Virus record (IMG/VR): IMGVR_UViG_3300014919_000025
Coordinates: 1 to 4,704 of that record
Source of the DNA: a virus
Taxonomy: Duplodnaviria > Heunggongvirae > Uroviricota > Caudoviricetes
Length of the DNA stretch: 4,704 nt
Strand: one strand, 5' to 3'
In this document: piece by piece, positions 1-4,603 of the stretch
How positions within the stretch are numbered: the stretch's first letter is position 1
Layout of the letters: every line of letters starts with the position of its first letter
The notes under the pieces: generated by a model
Told to the model about the DNA's origin: nothing
Databases searched by the model: none
The model's input: the letters and a program-made list of their open reading frames with translations, nothing else
Program-made: the position numbers and the translations under genes

Positions 1-24
1 AGAGTAATTCATCGGCACGTTAAA

Positions 25-657
25 TCATATCAGGCGTAATACCACAACCCTTAAGTTAGCGCTTATGGGGTTTACCCCCTCATTCAAACGGGCTTTCCAG
101 GCTTTGAAGGCTGCAGATTTTGAATTGCCACCAGCACGTTTTGGATAGGCCAGCCATGCCTGCTCAAACTCCGGAGAGTATTCCGGTCGGTTTGAACGAA
201 CTCGCACAGACTCATCAGCAGATGCACCAACAGCTATTGGTTCATTGACTGGTTCTTTGACTGGTTCAAAAGAGTGACTGGTTCTGGGTGAATCTCCTGC
301 ACTACCCCCTGGTGCAACTCCTGCACTACCTGGTGAATTTGCTGCACCAGATAGTGAATTATTTGCACTACCCCCTAGTGAATCTCCTGCACCATCAAGA
401 TGAAGGAGATAGATATTACTTGAGTTACCTTTTTCACCTTTCCGGGTGACTTTTTTTACCAGCCCGGACTCACAAAGGGCCGCAATATGATTCATCACAG
501 AACGTTTGCTAATCTCGCACTGGTCAGCAATATGCTGGTAGCTGGGCCAGCACTCACCCTGATCGCTGGCATTATCAGCCAGCTTAATCAGAACCAGTTT
601 TCGCAATGGATTTCCCACTCGAATTTTCATCGCTTTAACCATCAACTCCATACTCAT
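25..657 (-). CDS. Putative replication-initiation protein (210 aa): N-terminal winged-HTH domain, Gly/Ser/Ala/Pro-rich repetitive linker, short basic C-terminal region
   Basis: ORF-track ORF. The N-terminal region (LVLIKLADNASDQGECWPSYQHIADQCEISKRSVMNHIAALCESGLV) has the pattern of HTH domains found in phage/plasmid replication initiators. The ATG at 657 overlaps the stop of the upstream 74-aa ORF (ATGA at 654-657). It occupies the position of an O-like gene in a cro-cII-O type operon. The product call is inference; the coding call is better supported. Confidence 0.6.
   Translation of the reverse strand: MSMELMVKAMKIRVGNPLRKLVLIKLADNASDQGECWPSYQHIADQCEISKRSVMNHIAALCESGLVKKVTRKGEKGNSSNIYLLHLDGAGDSLGGSANNSLSGAANSPGSAGVAPGGSAGDSPRTSHSFEPVKEPVNEPIAVGASADESVRVRSNRPEYSPEFEQAWLAYPKRAGGNSKSAAFKAWKARLNEGVNPISANLRVVVLRLI
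240..392. repeat. Intragenic short direct repeats (iteron-like) in the linker of the replication gene
   Basis: TGACTGGTTC occurs three times (246-255, 258-267, 275-284). GTGAATCTCCTGCAC occurs twice exactly (288-302, 378-392), with degenerate copies near 332-348 and 352-368. CTGCACTACC(CCCT) occurs at 297-310, 321-330 and 364-376. These encode the low-complexity linker GAGDS / GSAGDSP / EPVKEPVNEP. Confidence 0.6.
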
Positions 658-878
658 GCAGCACCTCCGAGATGCTTCATGTTTTTTCCGGAGCGAAAGG
701 CTATAAGCGGCATACTGACGCGGTAATTACGGCCCAGCGGTTCACAAATCACCTTCTGACATTCACGGTCAACCAGGCTAACACGTAGAACATGCCCTGC
801 AGGCGTGGTGTACCACTGACCCGGACGAGGACAACGGAAAGTATGATTGGTAAACCGTTTGAAAATATTCCGGATCAT
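654..878 (-). CDS. Hypothetical small protein (74 aa), translationally coupled between Rha copy A and the replication gene
   Basis: ORF-track ORF. Its ATG (878-876) overlaps the Rha copy-A stop as ATGA (875-878), and its stop overlaps the next ATG as ATGA (654-657). An AGGGGG Shine-Dalgarno-like motif lies 5 nt upstream of the ATG. No recognisable domain. Confidence 0.4.
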   Translation of the reverse strand: MIRNIFKRFTNHTFRCPRPGQWYTTPAGHVLRVSLVDRECQKVICEPLGRNYRVSMPLIAFRSGKNMKHLGGAA

Positions 879-1756
879 TTACGCCCCCTTACCTCTGAAG
901 GGTTCAGCGACAAATTTATGAGACTGGCCAGTAGCGCCGCGTCGTTGATGCGGTCATACAGACTTACAGCCAGCGGGGATTCGGCTTTTGCCAACATGGG
1001 ATAAAGCTGCTGCAGCCAGACCTTGTGGATTACCGACAGGTGGGAGTAAAGCACGCTGGCGTTATCTGCGGCATCGCTCAGCGTGGATGGCTTTGAAAGC
1101 AGTTTTTCCATCTGGTTAAAGGCATTGATGTATGCCTCTTTGAACCGGGCAGCACGTTTACCCGTGAAACCCATAGCAAGAAACGCAAAACCGTCTCGTG
1201 TGATTTGATAGCAAAGGAGCTTGCGTGTACCACCGTTCGGTTGATTTACCGAAATCGATGTCTCCGCAAAATTGCGGGCACAAAACTCAGGGGAACAATC
1301 CAGAGTGCGGATCTTTTTCAGCACATCGTCGTGACGCTTGGAGAAGAAGTTGGCAACAGCCAAAGAAGTGGTAACGGCCTGGCCGTTGTCAATGGTGATT
1401 TCAGGTTGAGTGAGGGCTGGGATCGTAGCCATGATGGCAGCCTCCGTTGACAGTGAAAAACTTCCACCACCGGAAACGCCAATTTCACTGGTGGTGAACT
1501 GGACGGGGTTGGCGTAACCGGCGTCAACGGAGACCGGCGCACCTTTCGGTGCCCCCGCCCAGCCCACCATAATCTGGATGTGAGCAAATGCGGACGATAA
1601 AAAAGACGCTGGCGCGTCATACATCGCCGTTGACAATTTCAGGACGCCAATCCCGGCACCCGCTTTATAAGGTGCCTGAACAGTGTAACGTCCCGGAATT
1701 GCAGAATCAATATGCTGGTGGCGATTGGTAAACAGTTTGAAAATATTCCGGATCAT
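875..1756 (-). CDS. Rha-family phage regulatory protein, copy A. The full ORF is 293 aa; the Rha domain is the C-terminal 185 aa (875-1432) and has its own SD+ATG
   Basis: Rha hallmarks are present: FFSKRHDDVLKKIRTL and YQITRDGFAFLAMGFTGKRAARFKEAYINAFNQMEK. An internal start ATG at 1432-1430 is preceded by GGAGG (1441-1445 on plus) with an 8-nt spacer. The ORF is also open upstream to an ATG at 1756 that overlaps the copy-B stop (ATGA 1753-1756). Which start is used cannot be decided from sequence alone. Confidence 0.6.
   Translation of the reverse strand: MIRNIFKLFTNRHQHIDSAIPGRYTVQAPYKAGAGIGVLKLSTAMYDAPASFLSSAFAHIQIMVGWAGAPKGAPVSVDAGYANPVQFTTSEIGVSGGGSFSLSTEAAIMATIPALTQPEITIDNGQAVTTSLAVANFFSKRHDDVLKKIRTLDCSPEFCARNFAETSISVNQPNGGTRKLLCYQITRDGFAFLAMGFTGKRAARFKEAYINAFNQMEKLLSKPSTLSDAADNASVLYSHLSVIHKVWLQQLYPMLAKAESPLAVSLYDRINDAALLASLINLSLNPSEVRGRK
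1599..1618 (-). terminator. Terminator-like hairpin plus U-run inside the leader of Rha copy A (possible attenuator)
   Basis: On the minus strand, GACGC-gcca-GCGTC (plus 1605-1618) is followed directly by UUUUUU (plus 1604-1599). The stem is only 5 bp and the element lies within an open reading frame, so confidence is low. Confidence 0.3.
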
Positions 1757-2898
1757 TTACGCCCCCTTACCTCTGAAGGATTCAGCGACAAATTTATGAG
1801 GCAGGCCAGCGCCGAAGCATCATTAATATAGTCATACAAGCTAACAGCCAGCGGAGATTCGGCTTTTGCCAACATAGGATAAAGCTGCTGCAGCCAGACC
1901 TGATGAATTGATGAAATGTAGGAATAGAGAACGCTGGCGTTATGTGCAACGTCGCTCAGTACAGAGGGATTTGAAAGCTGTTTCTCCATCTGGTTAAAGG
2001 CATTGATGTATGCCTCTTTGAACCGGGCAGCACGTTTCCCCGTGAAGCCCATGGCAAGAAACGCAAAACCGTCGCGGGTGATTTGGTAACAAGGGAGTTT
2101 GCGGCCTGTGCAATCGGTGTAATCACTGGGCTGAAAATTCAGCTCAGTGAATTCAACAGAGCACTCAAGCGTCTGGATTTTTTGAATAACGTTTTTGTGC
2201 TGCTTGCAGAAATATTCGGCAACGGCCAAAGAAGAGGTAACAGCCTTCCCATGGATAACATCAATTTTAGGGTGAGTTTGGGTAGGGGTGGTTGCCATAG
2301 TGACATCCTCATGTGCGAATTTTGAAAACTCACCACATGGGACGCCAATCACAGAGGTGGTGAGACGTACAGGGTTGGCGTAACCGGTCGCACATGACCC
2401 CGGCGCATCTTTCGATGCCCCTGCACGCCCCACCATAATTTGGATGTGAGGAAACGTGCGCAAAAAAACCGCTGAAGCGCGGTTATGCGCATGTGCGAAT
2501 TTCAGGACGCCAATCCCGGCACCCGCTTTATAAGGTGCCTGAACAGTGTAACGTCCCGGAATTGCAGAATCAATATGCTGGTGGTCCTTCACACTCAACA
2601 AAATCACGCCTGAATTTCCACAAAGGACTAAAGCACTCATGCGGGTAGTCTTTGCGAAGATAGATAACGCGCTGTGTTTCTGGCTCCCAACGAATAACAT
2701 GGACATAAAGCCCTCTTCCGTCACGAAACCAGCGGTTAAGTTCCTGCACAACTCGCCCCCCACAGTCAGGTAAAGTTCTCTGTGGTTACTTACAGCCAGG
2801 TGATTTGGTAATCTGCATTCATGCCGTAACAACAGGTGTTCAGCGACGCTGACCACCAGCTGTTGCGACAAACGGTTATTTGCCGTTAAACTATTCAT
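1753..2898 (-). CDS. Rha-family phage regulatory protein, copy B, as a composite 381-aa ORF: a Cys/His-containing N-terminal region of about 105 aa, a leader of about 95 aa, and a Rha domain (1753-2298, 181 aa) with its own SD+ATG
   Basis: Rha motifs are present: YFCKQHKNVIQKIQTL and the identical core YQITRDGFAFLAMGFTGKRAARFKEAYINAFNQMEK. The internal ATG at 2298-2296 is preceded by GAGGA (2306-2310 on plus) with a 7-nt spacer. The ATG at 2898 overlaps the stop of the upstream 185-aa gene (ATGA 2895-2898). There is no in-frame stop between 2898 and the Rha domain. Confidence 0.55.
   Translation of the reverse strand: MNSLTANNRLSQQLVVSVAEHLLLRHECRLPNHLAVSNHRELYLTVGGELCRNLTAGFVTEEGFMSMLFVGSQKHSALSIFAKTTRMSALVLCGNSGVILLSVKDHQHIDSAIPGRYTVQAPYKAGAGIGVLKFAHAHNRASAVFLRTFPHIQIMVGRAGASKDAPGSCATGYANPVRLTTSVIGVPCGEFSKFAHEDVTMATTPTQTHPKIDVIHGKAVTSSLAVAEYFCKQHKNVIQKIQTLECSVEFTELNFQPSDYTDCTGRKLPCYQITRDGFAFLAMGFTGKRAARFKEAYINAFNQMEKQLSNPSVLSDVAHNASVLYSYISSIHQVWLQQLYPMLAKAESPLAVSLYDYINDASALACLINLSLNPSEVRGRK
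2462..2484 (-). terminator. Terminator-like hairpin plus U-run inside the leader of Rha copy B (possible attenuator)
   Basis: On the minus strand, AACCGC-gcuuca-GCGGUU (plus 2467-2484) sits next to a run of seven U (plus 2468-2462). It is at the position equivalent to the copy-A element but with a different stem sequence. Confidence 0.3.
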
Positions 2899-3452
2899 GC
2901 GTTAGTTTCTCCACAACCAGAAGCAATCGACGCCACGACGCCCGGAGCTGCACACTCGCGGGCGTTACTCTTTTCTGGAGCGCAGAAGATTTTGTAGACC
3001 AGTGCTGCATGCTCCTGGAGCTTCGAAATTGAAAGATACAGTTCGTCGTTAATTGCTGTCTTCTCATGCGGTTCCACTACACCGTCTTCGATTGCTGAAC
3101 GAATCTGTCTGGAATAACTGCCGATCTGTTCAATGACTTCCAGCAGGCGCTGGTTTATATCGGCGTTCTCTACTGCCTCAATTTCAGGAAGCGATACGAA
3201 CACCCCACCAGCAGACTGTGCGACAGCATCCGCAATGTAGTGAGTGCCAGCCGCACGCTGTAAAACCATTGCCCATCCCAGCGGGAAAATCTGATCGCCA
3301 TCTGCACGAAGGCGGTTGAATAATGCGTTCTCTGTTACATCCAGCCACTCAGCAGCTTCAGCGTAACCCCCCGGCAACGCCGCGATAGTTTTTCTGACAG
3401 CTTTCACGTACCACTCAGGCTGTTTTTCCACTTTCCAGTGATGATTACCCAC
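2895..3452 (-). CDS. Hypothetical regulatory protein at the cII position of the operon (185 aa), possibly CII/YdaT-like
   Basis: ORF-track ORF with a GTG start at 3452, preceded by AGGAGG (revcomp of 3460-3465) with a 7-nt spacer. The start overlaps the cro-like stop by 8 nt. The functional call rests on position only and is a weak inference. Confidence 0.55.
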   Translation of the reverse strand: MGNHHWKVEKQPEWYVKAVRKTIAALPGGYAEAAEWLDVTENALFNRLRADGDQIFPLGWAMVLQRAAGTHYIADAVAQSAGGVFVSLPEIEAVENADINQRLLEVIEQIGSYSRQIRSAIEDGVVEPHEKTAINDELYLSISKLQEHAALVYKIFCAPEKSNARECAAPGVVASIASGCGETNA

Positions 3453-3705
3453 GGCTTACCTCCTGTTCCTGTGGTTTAAACCCATTCTGGTTTTGGCTAG
3501 ATTGAAAACGTGCCGGATAAAGAATCTGCATTTCGCTGATTTCACCCTTAAAAAAATTGGCCAGACGTTCTGCAAGATCGATAGATGGAATTTGTTCCAG
3601 CCTTTCAATACGACTCAGCGTCGCTGGATTGACCTGAACGCCAGCAGCAACATGCTGCAAAGTAAATCCGTGCGCCTTACGCACACTCCGTAATGGTGAT
3701 TGCAT
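3445..3705 (-). CDS. Cro-like XRE-family HTH transcriptional regulator (86 aa)
   Basis: Small HTH protein (GFTLQHVAAGVQVNPATLSRIERLEQIPSIDLAERLANFF) transcribed divergently from the repressor gene. GGAGGT lies immediately upstream of the ATG (revcomp of 3709-3714). It is the first gene of the minus-strand operon. Confidence 0.7.
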   Translation of the reverse strand: MQSPLRSVRKAHGFTLQHVAAGVQVNPATLSRIERLEQIPSIDLAERLANFFKGEISEMQILYPARFQSSQNQNGFKPQEQEVSRG

Positions 3706-3802
3706 ATGACCTCCACATATTGCGTGATGAGCATATTATTTCACGCAAATATTTTGCGCAAGTTGATTTGCTTAACGCGCAATAAAGAAATGTAATAAAC
3801 GC
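3706..3802. promoter_or_regulatory. Divergent promoter/operator region between the cro-like and cI-like genes (OR-like)
   Basis: A 97-bp AT-rich intergenic region carries several related dyad half-sites. These are TTGCGTGA (3720-3727), CGCAA-N5-TTGCG (3744-3758), the palindrome TTGCGCAA (3754-3761) and TTGCT-N5-CGCAA (3768-3782). A candidate minus-strand promoter for cro has -35 TTGCGC (3756-3761) and -10 TAATAT (3733-3738) with a 17-bp spacer. A candidate plus-strand -10 TAATAA (3793-3798) sits just upstream of the repressor ATG. Confidence 0.55.
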
Positions 3803-4495
3803 ATGAACATAGGAAACCGAGTCAGACAACTTCGCCAGGCGAAGAACATGAAAATCGCCGATCTCGCTGAAGCAATAGGAGTGGATGCGGCGAATATCTC
3901 ACGCCTGGAAACAGGTAAGCAGAAACAATTCACTGAACAAGCCCTGAGTAATATTGCCAGGAGCTTAGGTGTTGATATCGCTGATCTCTTTACCTCAGAC
4001 GTCAAAAGTAATACTGTATGTAAAAACAGTATTGGTGAGGATGTTGCGCAGGTGAAGGATGTATTCCGTATTGAAATGCTGGATGTCAGTGCCAGTGCGG
4101 GAAATGGCCTTATCCAGGGCGGTGATGTCATTGATGTGATTCATGCCATTGAATACAGAACTGATAATGCTGTATCGATGTTTGGCGGACGGCCAGCCAA
4201 TCACATTAAAGTTATCAACGTTCGTGGGGACAGTATGTGTCCAACCATTGAGCCAGGAGATCTCATCTTCGTTGATATCAGTATCAATCAGTTTGATGGG
4301 GATGGTATATATGTATTTGGTTTTGATGATAAAATTTACGTCAAACGACTGCAAATGATACCTGATAAACTGCTGGTAATTTCTGATAATCAGATTTACC
4401 GCGAATGGGGAATTACCAGCGAAAACGAACATCGGTTTATGGTCTTTGGAAAGGTCTTAATCAGTCAGTCACAAACCCTTAAGCGACACAATTAA
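3803..4495 (+). CDS. cI-like prophage repressor (230 aa): N-terminal XRE-type HTH plus C-terminal LexA/S24-type autopeptidase domain
   Basis: The N-terminus NIGNRVRQLRQAKNMKIADLAEAIGVDAANISRLETGK is a canonical HTH. The C-terminal domain has the nucleophile in VRGDSM (Ser144) and the general base in YVKRL (Lys181), spaced 37 residues apart as in LexA. A candidate Ala-Gly cleavage site is SASA-GNG (Ala99-Gly100). Confidence 0.85.
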   Translation: MNIGNRVRQLRQAKNMKIADLAEAIGVDAANISRLETGKQKQFTEQALSNIARSLGVDIADLFTSDVKSNTVCKNSIGEDVAQVKDVFRIEMLDVSASAGNGLIQGGDVIDVIHAIEYRTDNAVSMFGGRPANHIKVINVRGDSMCPTIEPGDLIFVDISINQFDGDGIYVFGFDDKIYVKRLQMIPDKLLVISDNQIYREWGITSENEHRFMVFGKVLISQSQTLKRHN

Positions 4496-4515
4496 CCCCT
4501 ACCTCAACATCAATT

Positions 4516-4537
4516 AGCCACCAGAAGGTGGCTTTTC
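4516..4537 (+). terminator. Rho-independent terminator downstream of the repressor gene
   Basis: AGCCACC-agaa-GGTGGCT is a perfect 7-bp stem with a 4-nt loop, followed by TTTT, starting 21 nt after the repressor stop. Confidence 0.55.
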
Positions 4538-4550
4538 ATTACCCACCAAA

Positions 4551-4603
4551 TTGCATATCTCGCAATAAAAACACTTGCATAATGCGCAACTTCATTTTAT
4601 CTT
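4551..4603 (+). promoter_or_regulatory. Second operator-like cluster with a possible plus-strand promoter (OL/PL-like)
   Basis: Two 15-bp sites, TTGCATATCTCGCAA (4551-4565) and TTGCATAATGCGCAA (4575-4589), fit the TTGCG-N5-CGCAA dyad seen in the cI/cro intergenic region. A possible -35 TTGCAT (4575-4580) and -10 TATCTT (4598-4603) have a 17-bp spacer. Promoter direction and function are inferred. Confidence 0.35.

What the first reader, a model, noticed from the sequence alone, without database searches (positions are those of the whole stretch)
845..2584. Tandem duplication of a leader-plus-Rha module with mosaic divergence
Two units (845-1722 and 1723-2584) abut head to tail. Their ends are identical or nearly so: an 87-bp block 1635-1721 equals 2498-2584, and the 44-bp junction differs by one base. 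Their interiors are clearly diverged. A recent simple duplication would be uniformly identical, and an old one uniformly diverged. The observed pattern suggests either gene conversion homogenising the ends, or replacement of one interior by a heterologous allele through recombination in the conserved flanks. This gives a prophage carrying two different Rha-type regulators in series within its early operon.
Basis: seen in the sequence. Interest (0 to 1): 0.6.

Follow-up and report, generated by a model that had tools for sequence, protein, structure and literature searches.

The report
Two antisense-RNA-controlled Rha modules in tandem
The "leader plus Rha" repeat is really two copies, in series, of a known phage RNA switch (a small decoy RNA, a C4 antisense RNA and the Rha gene it silences). 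The two copies carry different, matched recognition sequences, so this E. coli prophage probably holds two separately controlled switches.

Summary
Units 845-1722 and 1723-2584 abut head to tail, 1635-1721 equals 2498-2584, and identity per 50 bp runs from 52% to 98%. The junction is real: it is 100% identical in 13 complete E. coli genomes.

The "leader" is not a leader. On the minus strand each unit holds a likely promoter, an IsrK-like sRNA with a terminator (Rfam 62 bits), a C4 antisense RNA (81 and 75 bits), and C4 target sites over the rha ribosome-binding site. This is the layout of P1/P7 immI and the Gifsy-1 isrK locus.

The diverged interior contains the specificity determinant. The C4 loop b' differs at 9 of 12 bases, and both of its target sites (b1, b2) carry matching changes within each unit. 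The second determinant (a') is shared.

Both units also occur elsewhere as near-identical single-copy alleles at the same locus. The 87-bp block is conserved across seven specificity classes, and the same junction joins other allele pairs. Exchange of alleles through conserved flanks therefore explains the mosaic, not divergence in place.

Similar arrays of two or three unlike modules recur in other prophages. RNA expression, specificity and Rha's function remain untested.

The parts
1723..2584 (-). Unit B (upstream module): promoter, IsrK-like sRNA, C4 RNA, target sites, rha-B, and the first 34 nt of a copy of the downstream 74-aa ORF
   Evidence: Alignment of the two units. It is 100% identical to one unit of L082 and 98-100% identical to the single-copy allele L092.
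845..1722 (-). Unit A (downstream module), same layout, followed by the intact 74-aa ORF
   Evidence: It is 98-100% identical to the single-copy alleles L043 and L050.
2498..2584 (-). Conserved 87-bp block of unit B: putative promoter (-35 TTGATT 2568-2573, -10 TACACT 2545-2550), inferred start at 2538, first two IsrK hairpins including a1
   Evidence: Identical to 1635-1721 and 82-87/87 identical in most modules of 7 b' classes. The promoter matches only 8/12 and was not flagged by the scan. The start site is inferred from position 1 of the Rfam isrK model.
1635..1721 (-). Conserved 87-bp block of unit A: -35 at 1705-1710, -10 at 1682-1687, inferred start at 1675
2462..2538 (-). IsrK-like sRNA B: a1 UUGGCGU at 2507-2513, b1 UCGCACAUG at 2490-2498, terminator stem 2467-2484 plus U tract
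   Evidence: Rfam RF01394 scores 62.3 bits against a gathering score of 50. Terminator scan, coordinates.
1599..1675 (-). IsrK-like sRNA A: a1 at 1644-1650, b1 GUCAACGGCGA at 1624-1634, terminator stem 1605-1618 plus U tract
   Evidence: Rfam RF01394 scores 62.2 bits. b1 starts at the exact base where the 87-bp identity ends.
2353..2440 (-). C4 antisense RNA B: b' loop GGUCAUGUGCGA at 2388-2399, a' UACGCCAA at 2375-2382
   Evidence: Rfam RF01695 scores 75.1 bits against a gathering score of 45. My own covariance model scores 95.4 bits. Coordinates.
1487..1574 (-). C4 antisense RNA A: b' loop UCUCCGUUGACG at 1522-1533, a' UACGCCAA at 1509-1516
   Evidence: Rfam RF01695 scores 81.4 bits and my own model 101.5 bits. 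Between A and B, 5 base pairs change on both sides in a compensating way and none breaks.
2306..2348 (-). C4 target region of rha-B: a2 at 2342-2348, b2 UCGCACAUGA at 2309-2318, overlapping the Shine-Dalgarno GAGGA at 2306-2310
1441..1482 (-). C4 target region of rha-A: a2 at 1476-1482, b2 GUCAACGGAG at 1442-1451, overlapping the Shine-Dalgarno GGAGG at 1441-1445
1753..2298 (-). rha-B, 181 aa, Phage_pRha domain
   Evidence: Pfam PF09669 at 1e-32. Substitutions are enriched at third codon positions.
875..1432 (-). rha-A, 185 aa, Phage_pRha domain
   Evidence: Pfam PF09669 at 4e-27.
1722..1756 (-). Array junction: the first 11 codons (34 nt) of a copy of the 74-aa ORF (ATGA overlap with the rha-B stop), one extra base (1722), then the 87-bp block of unit A
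   Evidence: The junction is 100% conserved in 13 genomes.
999..1022 (-). Shared stretch inside rha (also 1877-1900 in unit B) where the B-head/A-tail single-copy chimeras switch parent
   Evidence: Alignment A2 with L002. L011 shows the same switch.
654..878 (-). 74-aa ORF downstream of the array (PHROG 1153, function unknown). Its start is what was copied into the junction.
2570..2749 (-). DUF4222 gene immediately upstream of the array
   Evidence: Pfam PF13973 at 9e-14 and PHROG 1343.

Best explanation
The window comes from a lambdoid E. coli prophage. Between its cII-like gene (ymfL) and its replication gene it carries an array of two unlike immI-type RNA switch modules.

Each module, read on the minus strand, has the same layout:
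- a probable own promoter;
- an IsrK-like small RNA that carries the sites a1 and b1 and ends at an intrinsic terminator;
- on read-through transcripts, a C4 antisense RNA that exposes a' (a single-stranded joiner) and b' (a 12-nt hairpin loop);
- the sites a2 and b2, with b2 lying over the Shine-Dalgarno sequence of an rha gene.

The following mechanism is inferred from homology with P1/P7 c4-ant and Gifsy-1 isrK-anrP. C4 pairs with a2/b2 and blocks rha translation. The short IsrK-like RNA, or the a1/b1 segment in cis, competes for C4 and releases rha. Rha most likely acts as an antirepressor-type regulator.

The two modules share a'/a1/a2 but have different, internally matched b'/b1/b2 sets. 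They are therefore predicted to be largely independent switches, like the heteroimmune P1 and P7.

The array did not arise by duplication and divergence in place. A and B are pre-existing alleles of one locus. They were joined once by an illegitimate event 11 codons into the downstream gene. The interiors have since been exchanged by homologous recombination in the conserved flanks (the 87-bp block and the conserved rha 3' half). The same process also collapses arrays into single chimeric copies.

Shown here: the anatomy, the RNA family membership, the matched changes, the allele distribution and the reality of the junction. Inferred: transcription, RNA processing, specificity in vivo, Rha's activity and the selective benefit. 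The proposed benefit is that a lysogen silences incoming phages of either allele, and an infecting phage escapes lysogens that hold only one.
For: RNA family matches:
- Rfam hits lie above the gathering score for C4 (81.4 and 75.1 bits against 45) and isrK (62.2 and 62.3 against 50) in both units.
- Terminators are found at 1605-1618 and 2467-2484.
- The C4 fold is kept between the units: of 27 pairs, 5 change in a compensating way and none breaks. Across 36 representatives, 99.9% of cells are paired and 13 pairs change on both sides.

Specificity sites:
- 9 of 12 b' bases differ between A and B. Cognate b'-b1/b2 duplexes are -16.6 to -23.8 kcal/mol and non-cognate ones -5.0 to -9.9. The a'-a duplexes are shared.
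- Across 37 loop classes found in 120 viral loci, b' is complementary to a site at a fixed position over the effector's ribosome-binding site, and to a second site upstream. The mean self match is 8.4 and 7.2 nt; the cross-class match is 4.6 and 4.8 nt.
- a' also varies in step with a1/a2 in other modules.

Coding signal:
- A-versus-B differences in the leader show no codon pattern (23/20/24), while rha does (15/12/29 and 11/7/34).

Alleles and junction:
- Single-copy A, single-copy B and chimeras exist in the same gene context.
- The 87-bp block is conserved across 7 classes.
- The same junction occurs with B-A, B-A' and C-B contents and next to at least 4 different cI/cro regions.
- Independent arrays of 2-3 unlike modules occur in L024, L054, L045, L093 and L119, and more widely spaced pairs in L036 and L071.

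Published models:
- The mechanistic models are in PMC4825925, PMC2864571 supplement and PMC8198154.
- Other C4 modules drive ORF6N/P22 antirepressor-type proteins.
- PHROG families hit by Rha include 'anti-repressor' families.
Against: - There are no expression data. The proposed promoter matches the consensus at only 8/12 and was not called by the scan.
- The c4-a1b1 covariance model scores below its gathering score (21.6 against 46.7), although isrK, which covers the same segment, passes.
- The two modules share a'/a1/a2, so some cross-talk is expected. Several other arrays differ at both determinants.
- Rha's role as an antirepressor is not tested. There is no relative with a solved structure, and the match of its C-terminus to P22_AR_C is below threshold (E = 0.18).
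- The reading frame through the leader is open in 36 of 36 related leaders, so translation of the leader may be part of the mechanism in a way this model does not capture.
- Finding only unlike modules in arrays is expected from random draws among many classes. It is therefore not, by itself, evidence of selection.
- In this window the replication gene is cut by IS421, so the element may be a remnant.
Confidence: 0.72

Rival explanations
1. A single module was duplicated in place, the interiors then diverged, and gene conversion kept the ends identical.
For: The two 87-bp blocks within the array are 87/87 identical, whereas single-copy A alleles differ from them at 1-2 positions. This could hint at local homogenisation.
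Against: The A head and the B head each occur at 98-100% identity as single-copy alleles in other prophages, so the divergence predates the array. The block is 82-87/87 identical in most modules of 7 classes in unrelated contigs. The same junction joins other allele pairs, such as C-B in S88.
Confidence: 0.05
2. The tandem is an assembly artefact, a mis-joined repeat.
For: Repeats with identical ends can mislead assemblers.
Against: The 100-nt junction is identical in 13 independently assembled complete genomes, next to at least four different immunity regions, and in an IMG/VR contig.
Confidence: 0.01
3. The leader is mainly protein-coding. It encodes an 'Ash' domain, and the real products are long Ash-Rha fusion proteins of 293 and about 295-381 aa, as PGAP and Pfam annotate. 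On this view the RNA matches are secondary.
For: Pfam Phage_ASH matches the translated leaders (74.8 and 54.7 bits against a cut-off of 26), and PHROG families cover them. The rha frame has 0 stops in 36/36 related leaders, against 164 and 63 in the other two frames, and leader lengths differ by multiples of 3. An ATGA overlap links the frame to the upstream gene.
Against: Substitutions in the leader show no third-position excess, while rha does. Stems keep pairing through compensating changes. A Shine-Dalgarno sequence and an ATG sit at a fixed distance after b2. In many other classes a stop lies 9-30 nt upstream of the effector ATG. In Gifsy-1 the overlapping orf45 is conserved as nucleotides but not as amino acids (PMC4825925). 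A dual role, with RNA genes that are also translated through, is not excluded.
Confidence: 0.08
4. The modules are not immunity or antirepressor switches. Instead they are RNA-antitoxin-like addiction or abortive-infection cassettes: Rha is toxic, C4 keeps it silent, and loss or titration of C4 kills the cell.
For: The related systems include toxic outputs, namely P1 Icd and the Gifsy-1 AnrP-to-AntQ growth arrest (PMC8198154; PMC4825925). There are weak PADLOC hits to candidate defence families (PDC-S05, E = 3e-4). The element in this window is probably a defective remnant that still keeps the modules.
Against: The PADLOC hits are marginal. The modules sit in the early operon next to cI/cro/cII, like immunity functions. 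Related C4 modules drive P22-Ant-type proteins.
Confidence: 0.12

Closest known systems
P1/P7 immI operon (c4 antisense RNA, icd, ant1/2)
   Same: C4 RNA of the same Rfam family. a'/b' pair with a1/b1 upstream and with a2/b2 over a ribosome-binding site downstream. The antisense RNA and its target lie on the same transcript. Allelic recognition sequences give heteroimmunity (PMC2864571 supplement; PMC8198154; PMC6906374).
   Different: There is no icd-like ORF between C4 and the effector, because b2 covers the rha Shine-Dalgarno sequence directly. The effector is an Rha-domain protein, not the P1 Ant. The host element is an integrated lambdoid prophage, with the module inside the early operon. 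An intrinsic terminator separates a1/b1 from C4. Two modules lie in series.
Gifsy-1 isrK-orf45-anrP locus of Salmonella (Hershko-Shalev et al. 2016, PMC4825925)
   Same: IsrK family match above the gathering score. A short terminated sRNA plus a read-through mRNA. A stable processed RNA downstream (STnc1160), which by its position corresponds to C4. An antirepressor-like effector gene.
   Different: In Gifsy-1 a separate orf45 ends in an AUGA overlap with anrP. Here the equivalent frame runs into rha without a stop. The published model makes IsrK an activator acting on the long mRNA and does not invoke C4-type repression. Gifsy-1 has a single module.
Satellite phage P4 immunity (CI RNA with seqA/seqB/seqC)
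   Same: A processed antisense RNA acts on complementary sites upstream and downstream on its own transcript. IsrK is described as a structural homologue of SeqA (PMC4825925).
   Different: According to that paper, P4 CI causes transcription termination that blocks the replication genes. No P4-type genes are present here, and this relationship was not tested with the tools.
Rha family phage regulatory proteins (PF09669)
   Same: Both proteins match at 1e-32 and 4e-27.
   Different: The family name says little about function. Depositors call close relatives 'antirepressor', 'Rha protein' or 'transcriptional regulator'.

Membership tests
C4 antisense RNA (Rfam RF01695) | Covariance-model score at or above the family gathering score | tested here: met
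   81.4 bits (1487-1574) and 75.1 bits (2353-2440) against 45, covering the full model 1-87.
C4 antisense RNA (Rfam RF01695) | Long outer stem enclosing two hairpins, supported by covariation | tested here: met
   A versus B: 27 pairs, 5 compensating changes, none broken. Across 36 representatives: 99.9% paired, 13 pairs changed on both sides, slid controls 36-50% paired.
C4 antisense RNA (Rfam RF01695) | a' and b' complementary to a2/b2 downstream, with one site over a ribosome-binding site | tested here: met
   b2 at 1442-1451 and 2309-2318 overlaps the Shine-Dalgarno sequence. a2 lies at 1476-1482 and 2342-2348. Duplex energies are and the family-wide pattern.
C4 antisense RNA (Rfam RF01695) | a1/b1 copies upstream of C4 | tested here: met
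   a1 at 1644-1650 and 2507-2513; b1 at 1624-1634 and 2490-2498. The c4-a1b1 model itself scores only 21.6 against 46.7.
C4 antisense RNA (Rfam RF01695) | Processed by RNase P from a longer transcript to a roughly 77-nt RNA that represses the effector | not testable with these tools
   Only sequence features are available: an acceptor-like stem followed by ACCACC(A/U).
IsrK sRNA (Rfam RF01394) | Score at or above gathering; two 5' hairpins and a Rho-independent terminator | tested here: met
   62.2 and 62.3 bits against 50. Terminators found.
IsrK sRNA (Rfam RF01394) | Own promoter giving a short RNA and a read-through mRNA; Hfq binding | tested here: inconclusive
   TTGATT-17-TACACT lies 7 nt before model position 1 and is conserved in the 87-bp block, but it matches only 8/12 and was not flagged. 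Transcription and Hfq binding cannot be tested here.
P1/P7 immI operon | An icd-like ORF whose ribosome-binding site is the C4 target and whose translation is coupled to ant | tested here: not met
   b2 overlaps the Shine-Dalgarno sequence of rha itself, and no separate ORF lies between C4 and rha.
P1/P7 immI operon | Effector is the P1-type Ant antirepressor | tested here: not met
   Only Phage_pRha is found by Pfam. PHROG hits include antirepressor families that share the N-terminal domain.
Rha family (Pfam PF09669) | Score above the curated cut-off | tested here: met
   95 and 113 bits against 29.9.
Ash protein family (Pfam PF10554) | HMM score above the cut-off | tested here: met
   74.8 and 54.7 bits against 26 on the translated leaders.
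Ash protein family (Pfam PF10554) | Evolves as a protein-coding sequence | tested here: not met
   A-versus-B differences by codon position are 23/20/24 in the leader and 15/12/29 and 11/7/34 in rha. However, the frame is kept open in 36/36 leaders.
Recent simple tandem duplication | Uniformly high identity between the copies | tested here: not met
   Identity per 50 bp ranges from 52% to 98%.

The most novel reading that the evidence does not exclude
Temperate enterobacterial phages may build expandable arrays of mutually independent C4/IsrK antisense modules. Specificity would be drawn from a two-site (a and b) combinatorial code with dozens of alleles, and the arrays would serve as a weapon between phages. 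A lysogen with an array silences the antirepressors of several competing phage types, and an infecting phage with an array escapes lysogens that hold only one allele. Some arrays, such as L119, keep the RNA parts with almost no effector gene. In addition, the reading frame kept open through the RNA genes would let ribosomes arriving from the upstream early gene melt the switch during lytic growth. The same DNA would then act as an RNA switch in the lysogen and as a translated leader in the lytic cycle.
Probability: 0.3. Interest if true: 0.7.

Novelty: new variant of a known kind. Interest (0 to 1): 0.5.

Why it matters
Every component (C4 RNA, IsrK, Rha) is already a described family, so the parts are ordinary. 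The arrangement and its evolution add the following.

- Arrays of two or three unlike modules recur, and their recognition loops and target sites change together.
- The interiors are swapped between conserved flanks among phages that also differ in their cI/cro immunity.
- If the predicted independence holds, RNA-based secondary immunity in lambdoid prophages would have several specificities and a modular build.
- It would also supply a natural library of matched antisense/target pairs, with at least 37 b' classes in a sample limited to one a' sequence. Such a library could be useful for designing independent RNA regulators.
- The result exposes an annotation problem. PGAP, Pfam (Ash) and PHROGs treat these RNA genes as protein sequence.

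Tried and rejected
- RNAduplex on the full-length C4 and target segments gave meaningless energies of about -45 to -52 kcal/mol for every pair, because it unfolds the C4 stems. I replaced it with loop-only duplexes.
- The consensus promoter scan found no promoter in 800-2950. The promoter call therefore rests on homology and conservation only.
- The C-terminal 76 aa of Rha-A and Rha-B against Pfam at E up to 10 gave only a sub-threshold P22_AR_C hit for B (E = 0.18) and nothing for A.
- PDB sequence search with Rha-B gave no match.
- PADLOC gave only marginal hits.
- I tried to read the primary P1 literature. The P1 genome paper (PMC523184) is not held, and searches for the 1990-92 c4 papers found nothing readable. 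Statements about P1/P7 rest on secondary sources and on my own knowledge.
- Literature searches for tandem or multiple C4 modules found nothing. This shows only that nothing was found in the held library, not that the arrays are new.
- I did not run the large protein searches or a structure prediction, because Rha's fold would not decide the question asked.
- I considered using 'arrays always contain unlike modules' as evidence of selection and dropped it. With this many classes, random pairing would give the same result.
Full report
**1. Observation**

The window is read here mostly on the minus strand, because every gene except the cI-like repressor (3803-4495, plus strand) lies there.

- 1635-1721 is identical to 2498-2584, and the identity ends exactly at both edges.
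- 845-888 and 1723-1766 differ at one base.
- The two units align end to end. Identity per 50 bp is 98, 86, 64, 74, 76, 64, 62, 74, 56, 52, 86, 96, 82, 70, 96, 68, 98%. This is a true mosaic, neither uniformly identical nor uniformly diverged.

**2. The junction is real and the tandem is the rare state**

The window is 99.9% identical to a prophage of E. coli AF3. About 400 of 5426 complete E. coli genomes hold at least 80% of the window. Most of those listed span 3760 bp instead of 4638 bp, which is one 878-bp unit fewer.

A 100-nt probe across the junction (1673-1772) is found full-length at 100% identity in 13 genomes and in IMG/VR contig L082. Assembly error is therefore excluded, and one copy is the usual state.

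**3. What the 'leader' is**

Rfam places two families in each unit, both above their gathering scores:

| Element | Unit A | Unit B | Gathering score |
|---|---|---|---|
| IsrK sRNA | 1599-1675, 62.2 bits | 2462-2538, 62.3 bits | 50 |
| C4 antisense RNA | 1487-1574, 81.4 bits | 2353-2440, 75.1 bits | 45 |

Each IsrK-like element ends in an intrinsic terminator, with stems at 1605-1618 and 2467-2484.

Position 1 of the isrK model lies 7 nt downstream of TTGATT-17-TACACT inside the 87-bp block. This promoter is inferred. It matches the consensus at only 8/12 and the scan did not call it. It is nevertheless part of the most conserved stretch of the module.

After C4 come a2 and b2. b2 overlaps the Shine-Dalgarno sequence of rha (GGAGG at 1441-1445, GAGGA at 2306-2310). 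The rha ATGs are at 1432 and 2298.

The true rha genes are 875-1432 (185 aa) and 1753-2298 (181 aa). Both carry a Phage_pRha domain and are 71% identical, about 50% over the first 70 residues and about 88% after that.

This is the layout described for P1/P7 immI: a' and b' on C4, a1/b1 upstream, and a2/b2 over a ribosome-binding site downstream (PMC2864571 supplement; PMC8198154). It also matches the Gifsy-1 isrK-orf45-anrP locus (PMC4825925).

**4. What differs between the units**

The C4 fold is preserved. Of 27 pairs, 21 are identical, 5 change on both sides in a compensating way, 1 changes on one side, and none is broken.

The 12-nt loop of the second hairpin (b') differs at 9 positions: UCUCCGUUGACG in A and GGUCAUGUGCGA in B. 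Both of its targets differ in step:
- A has GUCAACGGCGA (b1) and GUCAACGGAG (b2).
- B has UCGCACAUG (b1) and UCGCACAUGA (b2).

b1 begins at the very base where the 87-bp identity stops.

Loop-only duplex energies are -16.6 to -23.8 kcal/mol for cognate pairs and -5.0 to -9.9 for non-cognate pairs. The joiner a' (UACGCCAA) and a1/a2 (UUGGCGU) are the same in both units, at -10 to -15 kcal/mol.

The interior divergence therefore includes a coordinated change of three separate sites per unit. The units are predicted to be independent at b and shared at a.

**5. This is how the whole family varies**

A scan of viral contigs for the a' region returned 120 loci. They contain 37 different b' loops.

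In each class the loop is complementary to a site at a fixed position, 64-70 nt after a' for nearly all classes. In most classes it is also complementary to a second site about 110 or 152 nt upstream. The mean longest self match is 8.4 and 7.2 nt, against 4.6 and 4.8 nt between classes.

A covariance model built from one representative per class confirms the fold: 99.9% of cells are paired, against 36-50% for slid controls.

In other modules a' also varies together with a1 and a2, for example ACUGCGAA with UUCGCAG and AGUUCCAA with UUGGAAC. The same b' is found combined with different a'. Recognition therefore uses two independently variable determinants.

**6. Origin of the mosaic**

Both units exist elsewhere as single-copy alleles at the same place, between the DUF4222 gene and the 74-aa ORF. 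L043 and L050 are 98-100% identical to unit A throughout. L092 is 96-100% identical to unit B. The A/B divergence therefore predates the array.

The 87-bp block is 82-87/87 identical in most modules of seven b' classes on unrelated contigs. Identical 5' ends therefore need no local gene conversion. Within the array the two blocks are 87/87, whereas single-copy A alleles differ at 1-2 positions. That is at most a weak hint of homogenisation.

Chimeras are common:
- FDAARGOS_144 (L002) and L011 are exactly B up to a shared stretch in rha (999-1022 / 1877-1900) and exactly A after it.
- L039, L104 and L112 carry A or B heads with unrelated tails.

The identical junction joins different contents:
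- B-A in the window, AF3, 582 and CEA601S;
- B plus an A head with another tail in 23CRST038;
- C-B in S88, N53 and CEA212U, where C has the loop UUUCCGUAUGCG.

These arrays lie next to at least four different cI/cro pairs.

The junction itself is an illegitimate join. It consists of the rha stop overlapping an ATG (ATGA), 11 codons of the 74-aa ORF, one extra base (1722), and then the block.

My reading is as follows. The scaffold arose once. Heads were then exchanged by homologous recombination between the block and the conserved rha 3' half, and the same recombination can collapse arrays into single chimeric copies. Whether a given single chimera descends from an array or from a cross between single-copy phages cannot be decided here.

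**7. Arrays recur independently**

Searching the 120 loci with the model found the following:

| Locus | Modules | Spacing |
|---|---|---|
| L024 | 3 | 656 nt |
| L054, L045 | 2 each | 656 and 653 nt |
| L093 | 2 | 847 nt |
| L119 | 3 | 383-387 nt |
| L036, L071 | 2 each, looser | 3.3 and 1.6 kb |

- In every array the b' loops differ, and in several the a sites differ too.
- In L119 only about 45 codons fit between one C4 and the next module.
- Effectors vary: full Rha, a 120-aa Rha-domain-only protein, and ORF6N with or without the P22 antirepressor C-terminal domain.
- With so many classes, finding unlike partners is what chance predicts. It argues against simple duplication but does not by itself show selection.

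**8. How it most likely works**

These steps are inferred from homology.

In the lysogen the internal promoter gives a short IsrK-like RNA and some read-through. The read-through is processed to C4, which binds a2/b2 and blocks rha translation. The a1/b1 segment, as a short RNA or in cis, competes for C4 and can release rha. This competition was proposed for P1 and IsrK was shown experimentally to act as an activator in Gifsy-1.

Rha is most likely an antirepressor-type regulator. The evidence is indirect: its position in the module, depositors' names for relatives, PHROG families, and the P22-Ant-type effectors in sister modules. None of this is a test.

Two modules with different b sets would give two separately gated effectors and two C4 RNAs acting in trans. 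A plausible benefit is broader silencing of incoming phages, together with escape from lysogens that hold a single allele. The shared a sites predict partial cross-talk in this particular array.

**9. An unexplained feature**

PGAP annotates the leaders as N-terminal parts of Rha (882, 888 or 1146-nt CDSs), as 'ash family protein', or as a pseudogene. Pfam Phage_ASH and PHROG families match the translated leaders.

A-versus-B substitutions in the leader show no codon pattern (23/20/24), while rha does. The sequence is therefore not evolving like a protein.

Yet the rha frame contains no stop in 36 of 36 distinct leaders from 8 b' classes. The other two frames contain 164 and 63 stops, and leader lengths are 287, 290 or 293 nt.

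The ORF that starts at the conserved AUG at the 5' end of C4 runs in frame into the effector in 46 of about 83 distinct modules, and ends in an AUGA overlap in 4, as orf45 does in Gifsy-1.

In Gifsy-1, orf45 is translated, is required for anrP translation, and is conserved as nucleotides but not as amino acids.

Translation through the RNA genes thus seems to be selected for. How this combines with C4 repression is open.

**10. Verdict**

The parts belong to known families. The unlike-module array, the matched three-site changes and the cassette exchange make it a new variant of a known kind. Interest is moderate.

Noticed in passing
window 1-66: The first 66 bases are the end of an IS4-like IS421 element inserted in the prophage replication gene (ORF 25-657), leaving 210 aa instead of the 272 aa seen in relatives. 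The same insertion junction occurs in eight bovine E. coli OkiPb genomes. There the prophage is a remnant with a single Rha module. The element in this window is therefore probably defective.
   Followed up: partly
window 1433-1756 and 2299-2898 (minus strand): The frame of rha stays open through the whole RNA leader. Unit A gives a 293-codon ORF from the ATG at 1756. Unit B gives a 381-codon ORF from an ATG at 2898 that overlaps the ymfL stop (ATGA) and runs across the DUF4222 gene in another frame. 36 of 36 related leaders have no stop in this frame. PGAP, Pfam (Ash) and PHROGs annotate it as protein, although it does not evolve like one.
   Followed up: partly
window 288-392: Short direct repeats (CTGCACTACC-like units about 24 nt apart; family D4 of the repeat scan) lie inside the replication gene. 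They resemble origin iterons placed within a lambda O-type gene.
   Followed up: no
window 3706-3802 and 4551-4569: The divergent cro/cI intergenic region contains TTGCG...CGCAA palindromes. One 19-nt element (3768-3786) recurs at 84% identity downstream of the cI-like gene (4551-4569). These are possibly operator copies on both sides of the repressor gene.
   Followed up: no
window 4514-4537: A hairpin AGCCACC-AGAA-GGTGGCT followed by TTTTC lies just after the cI-like gene. It looks like an intrinsic terminator. This was seen by eye only.
   Followed up: no
L119 1192-2055: Three C4 modules repeat every 383-387 nt. Each has its own a' and b' and matching targets, but only about 45 codons of the downstream gene fit before the next module begins. 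This is an array made almost entirely of RNA parts.
   Followed up: partly
L024 9706-11111; L054, L045, L093: Independent arrays with a 653-656 or 847-nt period contain three or two modules. The upstream effectors are 120-aa proteins with the Rha domain only. Adjacent modules there differ at both a and b sites.
   Followed up: partly
L036 4060-7409; L071 2143-3818: C4 modules in these contigs control ORF6N-domain proteins, one with the P22 antirepressor C-terminal domain, instead of Rha. They have stronger promoter-like hexamers (TTGACA/TTGACG and TATATT) at the position homologous to the weak one in the window.
   Followed up: partly
L123 (E. coli S88) 3218-4072: In S88 the downstream Rha of the array is annotated as a pseudogene 'missing N-terminus', although the RNA elements and the rha ORF are 100% identical to unit B. 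This is an artefact of treating the leader as coding sequence.
   Followed up: partly
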